Positions 1-50,933 of a DNA stretch of 64,000 nt are shown here, in pieces (position 1 is the stretch's first letter; each line of letters starts with the position of its first letter). This DNA comes from Polaromonas sp. (lineage in GTDB: Bacteria > Pseudomonadota > Gammaproteobacteria > Burkholderiales > Burkholderiaceae_C): NCBI GenBank assembly GCA_038902795.1, contig JBCKNJ010000001.1:24412-88411 (forward strand), written 5' to 3'. The position numbers were made by a program, and so were the translations under genes. The notes below the pieces were generated by a model. The model saw only the letters and a program-made list of their open reading frames with translations, was not told the origin of the DNA and searched no databases.

Positions 1-495
1 ATGCTCAGTGCCGAAACAGCCGTAGGCAAGTACCCGCTGGAAACGGTCGAGGAGATGGCCAAGATCTGCCTCGAAGCCGAAAAAACCGAGTACAAGGAAA
101 TCGAATCGGACTTCAGCGGCAAGACCTTTGCCCGCATTGACCAGTCCATCGCCATGGGCGCGCTGTTCACTGCCAGCCACCTGGGGGCCAAGGCCATCGT
201 GGCGCTGACCGACAGCGGCTCCACCCCGTTGTGGATGAGCCGCCACGACATCCGCATTCCCATTTACGCGCTGACACCGCACCTGGCCACCCAGCGCAAG
301 ATGGCCATCTACCGCAACGTTCGCCCTTTGCTGATGGACACCAGCGTTGACCGCGACACCGCTCTGCGCCAGGCAGAAGGCCATTTGCTGAGTCGCCAGA
401 TTGTGCAGAGTGGCGACGTGTACGCGATTACCTGCGGCGAGCCGATGGGCGCGCCGGGTGGAACGAATATGCTCAAAATTTGCCGGGTAGAATAG
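1..495 (+). CDS. pyk: Pyruvate kinase, 3' part (cut by window edge; mirror of 49500..49994)
   Basis: [12 protein letters not shown] motif; identical to the C-terminus of the full copy at 49500..50933. Confidence 0.95.
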
Positions 496-568
496 GGCCC
501 CCACGCTCCACCGCTGCGCTGGTCGGTACAAGTTACCAACGGGTTACCAACTTTTCAAGGACACCATC

Positions 569-1633
569 ATGGCTCTTGTTTCAATGCGCGAGCTGCTGGA
601 TCATGCGGCAGTCAACGGCTACGGCATTCCGGCTTTTAATGTCAACAATCTTGAGCAGGTACAAGCCGTGATGGAAGCGGCCAAAGAAACCGGTGCCCCG
701 GTCATCCTGCAAGCCAGTGCCGGCGCACGTAAATATGCAGGCGAGGCCTTCATCAAGCACCTGTTACAGGCCGCGATTGAGATGTACCCGAGCATTCCGC
801 TGGTCATGCACCAGGACCACGGCCAAAACCCTGACGTGTGCCAGAGCGCTATCAATCTCGGCTTTTCGTCGGTGATGATGGACGGCTCTCTTGAAGGCGA
901 CGGTAAAACCATTGCCAGCTATGAGTACAACGTTGAGGTGACGAAAAAAGTATCCAGCATGGCGCACAAGCTGGGCGTAACGGTTGAAGGCGAACTCGGC
1001 TGCCTCGGCAGCCTGGAGACTATGAGGGGCGACAAGGAAGACGGCCACGGCACCGAGGCAACCATGACGCGTGAGCAACTGCTGACCGACCCCGAGCAGG
1101 CCGCTGATTTTGTCAAGCAGACGCAAATTGACGCACTGGCCATCGCCATTGGCACCAGCCACGGCGCATACAAGTTCACCCGCAAGCCCACTGGCGATAT
1201 TTTGGCGATTGACCTTATCAAGGAAATCCACCGGCGCATTCCGAGCACGCATCTGGTGATGCATGGCTCGTCGTCCGTACCGCAAGACATGCTGGACATC
1301 ATCCGCCAGTACGGTGGCCAAATGAAAGAAACTTACGGTGTACCGGTTGAAGAAATTCAAGAGGCCATCAAACACGGCGTGCGTAAGATCAACATCGACA
1401 CCGACGTCCGCCTGGCGATGACTGGCGCGGTGCGCAAGTTCCTCTTTGAAAATCCTGAAAAGTTTGACGCACGCGAATGGCTCAAACCAGCCCGTGAGGC
1501 CGCCAAAGCACTGTGCAAGCAGCGCTACATCGAGTTCGGCTGCGAAGGCCAGGGCGCGAAGATCAAGGGCGACACACTGCAAGTTGTAGCCGCCAAATAT
1601 GCCAGTGGTGAGCTGGCGCAAGTGGTGCATTAA
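569..1633 (+). CDS. fba: Fructose-bisphosphate aldolase class II
   Basis: [33 protein letters not shown] motifs; AAGGA RBS; follows pyk. Confidence 0.96.
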
Positions 1634-1693
1634 ACCCGTTGCTTGGGGTATTTTGACGCGATGGCCTCCATAGCCTCCATAGATTGAAATGCT

Positions 1694-2626
1694 ATGAGCA
1701 CCGCTTCAACCGATTCAACCCTTACAACGCTTCACACCTCCTCCATCACCAGCCTTGCACTGCTAGCCCGTGGCAAGGTGCGCGACAACTACGTCGTGGG
1801 CAACAACCGCCTGCTGATGGTTGCCAGCGACCGCCTGAGCGCGTTTGATGTCATCCTCGGCGAACCCATCCCCGGCAAGGGCGCACTGCTGACGCAGATG
1901 GCGTTGTTCTGGTTTGCCAGACTCGGCCATATCTGCCCCAATCACCTCACAGGCGAAGCGCCTGAAAGCGTGGTCACGCCAGCCGAAGTGCCGCAAGTCA
2001 CCCATCGCTCCATGCTGGTCAAGCGCCTCAAACCACTGCCCATTGAAGCCGTGGTGCGTGGCTACCTTGCTGGCAGTGGCTGGAAGGAATACCAGGACAG
2101 TCAGGCCGTCTGCGGCGTTGCATTGCCTGCCGGGTTGAAGAACGCCAGCAAGCTGCCAGAGCCCATCTTCACGCCCGCAGCCAAGGCCGCAGTCGGCGAG
2201 CACGACGAAAACATCAGCTACGAGCAGGTCGTGAAAGTAGTGGGCGCTGACTTGGCCGCGCAAATCAAAAAAATCAGCATTCAAATTTACCAAGAAGCCG
2301 CCGCGTTTGCGCTGACCAAAGGCATCATCATTGCCGATACCAAGTTCGAGTTTGGCCTCGATGAAAACGGCACACTCACGCTGATGGACGAGGTGCTAAC
2401 GCCTGACTCATCACGCTACTGGCCGATCGAAGGTTACGAAGCCGCTTTTGCAGCGGGCCTGAACCCGCCGAGCTACGACAAACAGTTTGTGCGCGACTGG
2501 CTGGAAGCCGTGCGCATCAACGGCAAACCCTGGGACAAAACCCCGCCATCACCGCATCTGCCAGCCGATGTGATTGCCAAGACTGCGGCTAAGTACCAGG
2601 AGGCTTTGACGCGGCTGACGGGTTGA
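1694..2626 (+). CDS. purC: SAICAR synthetase
   Basis: [43 protein letters not shown] motifs. Confidence 0.96.
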
Positions 2627-48301: not shown

Positions 48302-48361
48302 AGCATTTCAATCTATGGAGGCTATGGAGGCCATCGCGTCAAAATACCCCAAGCAACGGGT

Positions 48362-49426
48362 TTAATGCACCACTTGCGCCAGCTCACCACTGGCATATTT
48401 GGCGGCTACAACTTGCAGTGTGTCGCCCTTGATCTTCGCGCCCTGGCCTTCGCAGCCGAACTCGATGTAGCGCTGCTTGCACAGTGCTTTGGCGGCCTCA
48501 CGGGCTGGTTTGAGCCATTCGCGTGCGTCAAACTTTTCAGGATTTTCAAAGAGGAACTTGCGCACCGCGCCAGTCATCGCCAGGCGGACGTCGGTGTCGA
48601 TGTTGATCTTACGCACGCCGTGTTTGATGGCCTCTTGAATTTCTTCAACCGGTACACCGTAAGTTTCTTTCATTTGGCCACCGTACTGGCGGATGATGTC
48701 CAGCATGTCTTGCGGTACGGACGACGAGCCATGCATCACCAGATGCGTGCTCGGAATGCGCCGGTGGATTTCCTTGATAAGGTCAATCGCCAAAATATCG
48801 CCAGTGGGCTTGCGGGTGAACTTGTATGCGCCGTGGCTGGTGCCAATGGCGATGGCCAGTGCGTCAATTTGCGTCTGCTTGACAAAATCAGCGGCCTGCT
48901 CGGGGTCGGTCAGCAGTTGCTCACGCGTCATGGTTGCCTCGGTGCCGTGGCCGTCTTCCTTGTCGCCCCTCATAGTCTCCAGGCTGCCGAGGCAGCCGAG
49001 TTCGCCTTCAACCGTTACGCCCAGCTTGTGCGCCATGCTGGATACTTTTTTCGTCACCTCAACGTTGTACTCATAGCTGGCAATGGTTTTACCGTCGCCT
49101 TCAAGAGAGCCGTCCATCATCACCGACGAAAAGCCGAGATTGATAGCGCTCTGGCACACGTCAGGGTTTTGGCCGTGGTCCTGGTGCATGACCAGCGGAA
49201 TGCTCGGGTACATCTCAATCGCGGCCTGTAACAGGTGCTTGATGAAGGCCTCGCCTGCATATTTACGTGCGCCGGCACTGGCTTGCAGGATGACCGGGGC
49301 ACCGGTTTCTTTGGCCGCTTCCATCACGGCTTGTACCTGCTCAAGATTGTTGACATTAAAAGCCGGAATGCCGTAGCCGTTGACTGCCGCATGATCCAGC
49401 AGCTCGCGCATTGAAACAAGAGCCAT
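48362..49426 (-). CDS. fba: Fructose-bisphosphate aldolase class II (mirror copy)
   Basis: Identical protein to 569..1633. Confidence 0.96.
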
Positions 49427-49499
49427 GATGGTGTCCTTGAAAAGTTGGTAACCCGTTGGTAACTTGTACCGACCAGCGCAGCGGTGGAGCGTGGGGGCC

Positions 49500-50933
49500 C
49501 TATTCTACCCGGCAAATTTTGAGCATATTCGTTCCACCCGGCGCGCCCATCGGCTCGCCGCAGGTAATCGCGTACACGTCGCCACTCTGCACAATCTGGC
49601 GACTCAGCAAATGGCCTTCTGCCTGGCGCAGAGCGGTGTCGCGGTCAACGCTGGTGTCCATCAGCAAAGGGCGAACGTTGCGGTAGATGGCCATCTTGCG
49701 CTGGGTGGCCAGGTGCGGTGTCAGCGCGTAAATGGGAATGCGGATGTCGTGGCGGCTCATCCACAACGGGGTGGAGCCGCTGTCGGTCAGCGCCACGATG
49801 GCCTTGGCCCCCAGGTGGCTGGCAGTGAACAGCGCGCCCATGGCGATGGACTGGTCAATGCGGGCAAAGGTCTTGCCGCTGAAGTCCGATTCGATTTCCT
49901 TGTACTCGGTTTTTTCGGCTTCGAGGCAGATCTTGGCCATCTCCTCGACCGTTTCCAGCGGGTACTTGCCTACGGCTGTTTCGGCACTGAGCATCACGGC
50001 ATCGGTGCCATCGAGCACCGCGTTGGCCACATCACTGACCTCGGCGCGCGTGGGCACCGGGTTCAAAATCATGCTTTCCATCATCTGCGTGGCGGTGATG
50101 ACAAACTTATCTTGTGCACGCGCCATTTTGATCATGCGTTTTTGCAGCGCTGGAACGGCCGCGTAGCCAACTTCAACCGCCAGGTCGCCACGCGCCACCA
50201 TGATGCCGTCGCTGACACGCAAAATTTCTTCAAGATTGGGAATCGCCTCGGCGCGTTCTATCTTGGCTATCAGCCCCGGCTTGTGTTTGTACTGGCTTCC
50301 TGCCACATTGCAAAGCTGGCGCGCCATTTCCATGTCGGTCGCATTTTTCGGAAAGCTCACCGCCACGTAGTCAGCCTGAAAACTCATCGCGGTCTTGATG
50401 TCTTCCATATCCTTGGCCGTCAGCGCAGGCGCGGTCAGGCCACCGCCCTGCTTGTTGATACCCTTGTTGTTTGACAGCACGCCGCCCAGCTTGACGGTGG
50501 TGATGACCTCTTCGCCCAGAACGGCATCGACCGTCAGCACAATCAGACCATCGTTGAGCAACAGCACATCACCGGCCTTCACATCGCGCGGCAACTTTTT
50601 ATAGTCAAGCCCGACACCTTTGATGTCACCTGGCTCAGTACGCGATGCGTCGAGTACAAATTTTTCGCCCCGCACCAATTGCACTTTGCCTTCGGCGAAT
50701 TTGCCGACGCGGATTTTCGGACCTTGCAGGTCAGCCATGATGGCCACTTCGCGCCCGGCACGCTGCGAGGCTTCGCGCACCACCGCTGCCAGGTTGATGT
50801 GGTCTTGCGCCTTGCCGTGGCTGAAGTTCAGACGAACCACGTTCACGCCAGCGCGAATCATTTTCTCTAACAGGGCCGGGTCGCTGGAAGCGGGGCCGAG
50901 GGTGGCAACAATTTTGGTGGCGCGACGTGGCAT
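49500..50933 (-). CDS. pyk: Pyruvate kinase (complete)
   Basis: [56 protein letters not shown] before ATG 50933. Confidence 0.97.

What the first reader, a model, noticed from the sequence alone, without database searches (positions are those of the whole stretch)
1..49994. At least 24.9-kb inverted duplication (giant palindrome) of housekeeping DNA
Seen: 1..24867 mirrors 25128..49994; all mirrored ORFs translate identically; the left arm runs off the window, so 49995..64000 may also be mirrored upstream. Normally single-copy genes (rpmB, rpmG, ftsK, lolA, prfC, fba) are doubled. Established: fold-back chimeras with a short loop arise in multiple displacement amplification and in template/complement long reads; real tandem inversion duplications with asymmetric junctions occur in bacteria; hairpin-ended linear replicons also assemble as palindromes. 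Inference: an artefact is most likely given the apparent lack of divergence and the broken gene at the junction. If real, it is a replicon end or recent amplification worth study.
Basis: partly seen in the sequence, partly recalled or inferred. Interest (0 to 1): 0.72.

Follow-up and report, generated by a model that had tools for sequence, protein, structure and literature searches.

The report
Mirror-image contig: likely fold-back artefact
The whole 98.8-kb contig behind this window is one stretch of ordinary housekeeping DNA written twice, back to front and letter for letter, around a 260-base centre where a gene is cut off; it is likely a laboratory or assembly artefact rather than a real duplication in the cell.

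Summary
The mirror is real in the assembly and larger than reported. The entire contig (98,816 bp) is two 49,278-bp arms with 0 mismatches around a 260-bp spacer, and both contig ends are the same base. Three close relatives (about 91-98% identical) hold this DNA once. The closest, G126, shows the natural order: the spacer continues through a cupin gene to purN. In this genome the cupin gene is cut after codon 25 at a 4-base self-complementary GGCC and turns back onto the arm. Beyond that point, 63 of 65 genes of a relative's next 78 kb have no orthologue in the assembly, and ileS and purN are absent. In three single-contig relatives the locus lies mid-replichore, not at the terminus, and no telomere resolvase was found. 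Best reading: a broken strand folded back during amplification or library preparation, and the assembler walked one path twice. The source reads were not available, so read depth is untested. Whole-contig palindromes are a published artefact, and this scan noted one before on other DNA (e1-4958918). A real 49-kb inverted duplication is not excluded (about 4%).

The parts
1..24867 (.). Left arm: mirror copy, likely the artefactual second walk. It continues 24,411 bp beyond the window start to the contig end.
25128..64000 (.). Right arm, colinear in blocks with relatives. 25128-49994 is mirrored inside the window, 49995-64000 outside it (C1 74406-88411); the arm runs 10,405 bp past the window end.
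24868..25127 (.). 260-bp single-copy spacer (the loop of the fold); colinear and 94% identical with G126:C70 6566-6835
24864..24867 (.). Fold-back junction: self-complementary GGCC shared by the arm end and codons 24-25 of the cupin gene; its partner GGCC is at 25128-25131
   Evidence: likeness to G126's cupin gene runs to 24865; 24864 is a third codon position
24864..24938 (-). First 25 codons (signal-peptide-like) of a cupin gene; the rest is absent from the assembly
   Evidence: full-length 158-aa homologue in G124 matches Pfam Cupin_7 over its cut-off
25025..25031 (-). GTTRRRY-type core site where the cupin unit begins; likely an integron gene cassette (followed by a 59-bp attC-like hairpin in G126, preceded by a 65-bp one in G124)
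   Evidence: attC core motifs recalled
25128..25134 (.). Right junction: 1,220-bp deletion relative to G126 (6829-8048) at a short direct repeat (3 exact bases; 6 of 7 against G126); not a fold
25128..25216 (-). 89-bp remnant of an alpha/beta-hydrolase-LuxR gene (363 aa in G126); mirror copy at 24779-24867
25200..25218 (.). 7-bp-stem hairpin at a second, 168-bp deletion relative to G126; two substitutions against G126 make the stem perfect; mirror copy at 24777-24795
25316..28048 (-). AceE-family alpha-ketoacid dehydrogenase E1 gene (TIGR03186 and TIGR00759 over cut-off), the last intact gene before the fold; mirror copy at 21947-24679 (+)

Best explanation
The contig is a perfect mirror around a 260-bp spacer, and it likely comes from one DNA strand that ended inside the cupin gene, folded back about 260 bases onto a 4-base GGCC match and was extended during whole-genome amplification or library preparation, after which the assembler likely wrote the same 49-kb path a second time in reverse. 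Shown: the perfect whole-contig mirror; single-copy order in relatives; one fold junction at GGCC inside a cut gene; absence from the assembly of the DNA that should follow. Inferred: that the junction formed in the tube, and that the second arm's length comes from the assembly graph (once arm-spacer-arm junction words exist, the path A, spacer, reverse A is unbranched), so the chimeric molecule itself may have been short. Whether the genome is a single-cell or a metagenome assembly is not known.
For: 0 mismatches in 49,278 bp and both contig ends at the same base. G126:C70 runs purN, MFS gene, cupin, spacer, hydrolase, E1 gene in one direction; G124:C14 and G125:C2 also run from the E1 gene to purN without a mirror. 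In G124, G125 and G126 each long unique segment of window 30000-49994 had one high-identity match at most. Contigs of 2 of 4 laid runs leave the window exactly at 25128 with the hydrolase continuation also seen in G126; contigs of the other 2 carry the cupin gene onward; none bridges either junction. 2 of 65 ORFs of G125:C2 36.7-115 kb have an orthologue in G000, against 9 of 13 in the arm-syntenic part; ileS and purN have no match over cut-off in G000. Amplification chimeras are 85% inversions, mostly under 10 kb apart, primed on 2-21 complementary bases (PMC1855051). Whole-contig palindromes were removed as assembly artefacts from single-cell assemblies (PMC12755884) and from SPAdes isolate assemblies, 81 contigs (PMC9455707).
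Against: No raw reads: none of 22 listed runs holds half of the words, best share 0.24, so depth is untested. A short-read assembler would also collapse a real young duplication to 0 mismatches and end both arms at one base, and the contig ends at the stop codon of a FadL-type porin gene, a plausible graph branch in either case. G000 is only 72.77% complete and its gaps are blocky elsewhere too (6 of 15 ORFs present in G125:C2 1-17.9 kb), so the missing 78 kb is support, not proof; it also assumes G125's gene order. The four runs are one study, and two of the contigs have depth under 4. The same fold-back chemistry, on repeats as short as 4 bases, is proposed for real inverted repeats (PMC5345009). 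No second chimera of this kind was seen in the other 102 contigs.
Confidence: 0.84

Rival explanations
1. The cell carries a real but short inverted duplication (tens to hundreds of bases) at this decaying cassette locus. The DNA beyond it dropped out of the data, so the assembly graph had no exit and the assembler returned along the arm. The junction would be biological; the 49-kb mirror would still be an artefact.
For: The locus rearranges at short repeats in nature: G124 and G125 share a different deletion here, and G000 has 1,220-bp and 168-bp deletions within 350 bp of the fold. The far side is missing from the assembly.
Against: No contig in G000 holds an exit from such a repeat or the rest of the cupin gene. 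The exact 21-base junction word occurs in 1 of 204 genus genomes, G000 itself. It needs the dropout to begin within bases of the duplication by coincidence.
Confidence: 0.1
2. A real giant inverted duplication with arms of at least 49 kb, formed in the cell by break-induced fold-back synthesis, as proposed for Lactobacillus delbrueckii ssp. bulgaricus, or the centre of a tandem inversion duplication / inverted triplication.
For: Real bacterial inverted repeats of 38-76 kb overall exist, with loss of adjacent DNA (PMC5345009); also 69.9-kb and 553-kb cases (abstracts). The asymmetric junction with microhomology fits. Zero divergence and co-terminal ends do not exclude it in short-read assemblies.
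Against: Known cases are terminus-linked or IS-bounded; here the locus is 0.18-0.23 of the circle from dnaA in 3 single-contig relatives. The L. bulgaricus repeats are shared by all 5 strains and have 1-8.8-kb spacers; this one is in 0 of the 3 closest relatives and has 260 bp. The lost side there is 3.8 kb; here the missing side includes ileS. An inverted triplication keeps the distal DNA (PMC4689423); none is in the assembly. Only 5 of 1,368 complete genomes had repeats over 8 kb with a spacer under 10 kb.
Confidence: 0.04
3. The centre is a covalently closed hairpin end of a linear replicon, which assembles as a palindrome.
For: Nothing follows the fold in the assembly, and hairpin-ended replicons do assemble as mirrors (recalled).
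Against: The centre is a 260-bp asymmetric stretch of gene fragments, not a dyad telomere site. No ResT/TelK catalytic domain (PF16684) in G000 (genome 73% complete). Relatives continue through core genes.
Confidence: 0.01

Closest known systems
Whole-contig palindromes removed as assembly artefacts (PMC12755884, single-cell assemblies, passages; PMC9455707, SPAdes isolate assemblies, passages)
   Same: [quoted passage not shown]
   Different: Those papers did not map the junction in the passages seen. Here relatives place it at a 4-base GGCC inside a cupin gene.
Inverted chimeras of multiple displacement amplification (PMC1855051; abstract, background and first part of results read)
   Same: Inversion joining segments under 10 kb apart, primed on 2-21 complementary bases.
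   Different: Described on single reads, not on assembled 49-kb arms. It is not known that this genome was amplified.
Very large terminus inverted repeats of Lactobacillus delbrueckii ssp. bulgaricus (PMC5345009; parts 1-3 of 6 read)
   Same: Tens-of-kb arms, unique spacer, proposed fold-back priming on a short repeat, loss of adjacent DNA.
   Different: At the terminus and including dif; shared by 5 of 5 strains; spacers 1-8.8 kb; arms 18.7-37.7 kb with many pseudogenes; doubled read depth shown. None of these is shown here, and position and sharing are contradicted.
Tandem inversion duplication / inverted triplication (Kugelberg 2010, not held, recalled; PMC4689423 passages)
   Same: Asymmetric palindromic junction at short interrupted inverted repeats.
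   Different: Needs a second junction and keeps distal DNA; the assembly has one fold and lacks the distal DNA.

Membership tests
Artefactual palindromic contig | Whole contig mirrored exactly, both ends at the same base | tested here: met
   49,278 bp, 0 mismatches
Artefactual palindromic contig | Region single-copy and continuing past the fold in close relatives | tested here: met
   (3 of 3 closest relatives; different species, about 91-98% identical)
Artefactual palindromic contig | Arm read depth equal to single-copy depth | not testable with these tools
   no run holds this exact DNA
MDA inverted chimera | Inversion between segments under 10 kb apart with 2-21 complementary bases at the junction | tested here: met
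   260-bp loop, 3-4-base GGCC match
MDA inverted chimera | DNA was amplified by MDA | tested here: inconclusive
   All 103 contigs are at least 2,009 bp, no end overlaps of 16 bp or more, blocky gaps: compatible with single-cell or metagenome assembly
Terminus inverted repeat (L. bulgaricus type) | Located at the replication terminus | tested here: not met
   0.23, 0.23 and 0.18 of the circle from dnaA in G042, G058, G219, from rounded genome sizes; G048 and G050 left out as multi-contig; assumes similar gene order in G000
Terminus inverted repeat (L. bulgaricus type) | Repeat includes dif | tested here: inconclusive
   No dif-like core in C1, but the recalled motif also failed on the 5 near-complete relatives, so the test has no power
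Terminus inverted repeat (L. bulgaricus type) | Shared by related strains | tested here: not met
   Absent from G124, G125, G126; no second strain of the same species was available
Tandem inversion duplication / inverted triplication | Distal sequence retained and a second junction present | tested here: not met
   Distal DNA absent from the assembly; caveat: 73% complete
Hairpin-ended linear replicon | Telomere resolvase gene | tested here: not met
   PF16684: 0 matches in G000; incomplete genome
Hairpin-ended linear replicon | Dyad-symmetric telomere site at the axis | tested here: not met
   Axis is 260 bp of asymmetric gene fragments

The most novel reading that the evidence does not exclude
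A living cell of this freshwater/sediment lineage carries a brand-new, perfect inverted duplication with arms of at least 49 kb and only 260 bp between them, in mid-replichore, made by fold-back at a 4-base GGCC inside an integron-type cassette: a wild snapshot of break-induced palindrome formation before any erosion.
Probability: 0.04. Interest if true: 0.7.

Novelty: not a real feature. Interest (0 to 1): 0.06.

Why it matters
As biology, probably not at all. As data quality it matters a little: the largest contig of a species-representative genome is half redundant (49,278 bp, 2.6% of the assembly), and 32 of the genome's 35 near-identical protein pairs lie inside it, which would inflate gene counts and likely part of the 3.2% contamination figure. 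If it were real it would be a rare wild bacterial giant inverted repeat, away from the terminus and with a very short spacer, and would allow a direct test of fold-back palindrome formation in nature.

Tried and rejected
Source reads: 22 runs listed, best share 0.24; the 4 runs laid were relatives' contigs, so depth says nothing about copy number. Three of those 4 gave no cover of 24772-25263; a part without cover is no finding. Two scans of metagenome contigs with junction-side motifs found 0 stretches. The hydrolase continuation was not found in G000 with up to 3 mismatches. The first 40 relatives matched only the E1 gene, not the spacer; the genus-wide search found the three informative genomes (12 of 203 matched, 3 strongly). 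GC skew and KOPS counts were too weak to place the terminus. The dif motif test had no power. Restriction-ligation at GGCC was considered and dropped: the spacer holds an internal GGCC, and GGCC occurs every 115 bp in this genome. Integrase action at the fold was considered and dropped: the cassette core site is about 160 bp from the fold. The outer flank could not be traced: the porin gene at the contig end had no match in G124-G126. Kugelberg 2010 is not held. Paper searches with 6 and with 5 required terms returned nothing; the search listed 5 papers, none read. No earlier notes exist on this genome.

Full report
Observation. Window 1-24867 is the exact reverse complement of 25128-49994, with no mismatch. 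The window is G000:C1 10406-74405 on the minus strand. The whole contig is a mirror: C1 1-49278 equals the reverse complement of 49539-98816 at 100%, the spacer is 260 bp, and the first and last bases of the contig are the same position of the arm. No other contig of 103 has an inverted self-match of 200 bp or more. The arms carry ordinary genes: prfC, lolA, fba, tsaC, an AceE-family E1 gene, fmt and dprA pass NCBIfam cut-offs, and ftsK is the best match under its cut-off. 32 of the 35 near-identical protein pairs in the genome lie inside C1.

Natural order. A search of 204 genus genomes with the centre found three close relatives, G124, G125 and G126. G126:C70 holds the spacer and the arm once, in one direction: purN, an MFS gene, a cupin gene, the spacer, a 363-aa alpha/beta-hydrolase-LuxR gene, the E1 gene, an Lrp-type regulator gene and prfC (purN, MFS and Lrp labels recalled from the translations). 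G124:C14 and G125:C2 also run from the E1 gene on to purN, with other genes between. In all three, long unique parts of window 30000-49994 had at most one high-identity match.

The two junctions differ. The right one (25127/25128) is a plain 1,220-bp deletion against G126 at a short direct repeat, and a second deletion of 168 bp lies about 80 bp further on. These may be natural, since G124 and G125 share another deletion at this locus. The left one (24867/24868) is the fold. Read on the minus strand, the cupin gene starts at 24938 and matches G126 to 24865; after codon 25 it turns onto the reverse arm. The shared bases are GGCC, which pairs with itself. A strand ending there could pair with the GGCC about 260 bases upstream on itself and be extended back along the arm. 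That step is inferred. Contigs of four sediment runs of one study agree with G126: in two, a 339-bp contig identical over 25128-25200 leaves the window exactly at 25128 with the hydrolase continuation (depth under 4); in the other two the cupin gene goes on; none bridges either junction. The exact 21-base fold word is in 1 of 204 genus genomes, G000.

What is missing. The rest of the cupin gene and G126:C70 1-6565 have no counterpart in G000 apart from a 273-bp second copy of the E1 gene's 3' end. I fetched 120 of the 125 kb of G125:C2. Between 36.7 and 115 kb, 2 of 65 ORFs of 150 aa or more have an orthologue in G000 (at least 80% identity, half coverage), against 9 of 13 in the arm-syntenic part, 6 of 15 before it and 4 of 5 after it. 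ileS and purN have no match over cut-off in G000. A cell cannot lack isoleucyl-tRNA synthetase (established knowledge), so the organism has DNA here that the assembly lacks, and the gap starts at the fold. This fits a template that ended at this point. It is not proof: the genome is 72.77% complete, its gaps are blocky elsewhere, and G125's order is assumed.

Mechanism. Most likely a strand end folded back in the tube and the assembler wrote the arm twice. Lasken and Stockwell found 85% of amplification chimeras to be inversions, mostly between segments under 10 kb apart, primed on 2-21 complementary bases (PMC1855051, first quarter of the text read). Contigs whose first half is mirrored exactly were removed as likely artefacts from single-cell assemblies (PMC12755884, passages) and from SPAdes isolate assemblies (81 contigs; PMC9455707, passages), so amplification is not required. 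I could not tell which kind of assembly G000 is.

Rivals. They lie at the terminus, include dif, are shared by 5 of 5 strains, have 1-8.8-kb spacers and show doubled depth. The authors propose the same fold-back chemistry, so junction form alone does not separate real from artefact. Here the locus lies 0.23, 0.23 and 0.18 of the circle from dnaA in three single-contig relatives, and the closest relatives lack the repeat. My dif test had no power. Two further real cases are IS-bounded (69.9 kb) or terminus-linked (553 kb) (abstracts only). An inverted triplication keeps the distal DNA (PMC4689423, passages); the assembly does not have it. A hairpin telomere is unlikely: the axis is asymmetric gene debris and PF16684 has no match. 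A real but short local inversion with an assembler double walk remains possible.

Limits. Zero mismatches and co-terminal ends would also arise if a short-read assembler collapsed a real young duplication; the contig ends at the stop codon of a FadL-type porin gene, where a graph branch is plausible in either case. No supplements were read.

Verdict. The mirror exists in the record and is most likely not in the cell: about 0.94 for an artefactual giant palindrome (0.84 junction made in the tube, 0.10 real short junction), 0.04 for a real giant duplication, 0.01 for a telomere. Interest 0.06.

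Noticed in passing
window 24864-25031 (-); L036 (G126:C70) about 6070-6730; L037 (G124:C2) about 7800-8540: The cupin gene looks like an integron gene cassette: it starts at a GTTRRRY core, is followed by a 59-bp attC-like hairpin in G126 and preceded by a 65-bp one in G124, and sits at different loci in these relatives with no integrase gene seen next to it in the stretches read.
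   Followed up: partly
G000:C28:756-1715 and G000:C45:775-1728: Two integron integrase genes over the TIGR02249 cut-off in this genome; their arrays were not examined.
   Followed up: no
window 25200-25218 (mirror 24777-24795): A perfect 7-bp-stem hairpin at the 168-bp deletion; two substitutions against G126 both perfect the stem, as template switching would.
   Followed up: partly
window 38389-38484, 44463-44610, 33455-33587, 32313-32405: Interspersed palindromic intergenic repeat families: 73 hits on 38 contigs for the 96-bp one, 28 hits on 15 contigs for the 148-bp one, 9 and 5 hits for the others (mirror copies in C1 included); also abundant in G124-G126. MITE- or REP-like; not classified.
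   Followed up: partly
G000:C17 112-3228 / 5513-8629 and G000:C71 1480-2694 / 6406-7620: Direct repeats of 3,117 bp (14 mismatches) and 1,215 bp (4 mismatches) with mismatches mostly near the repeat ends; real tandem duplications or misjoins, not resolved.
   Followed up: partly
L036 (G126:C70) 4292-4564: A second, 273-bp, 91%-identical copy of the E1 gene's 3' end next to purN in G126, in the same direction as the intact gene, bracketing the cassette-like block as a target duplication would.
   Followed up: no
L036 (G126:C70) cupin gene: G126's copy of the cupin gene stops after 128 codons, against 158 in G124: likely a nonsense change.
   Followed up: no
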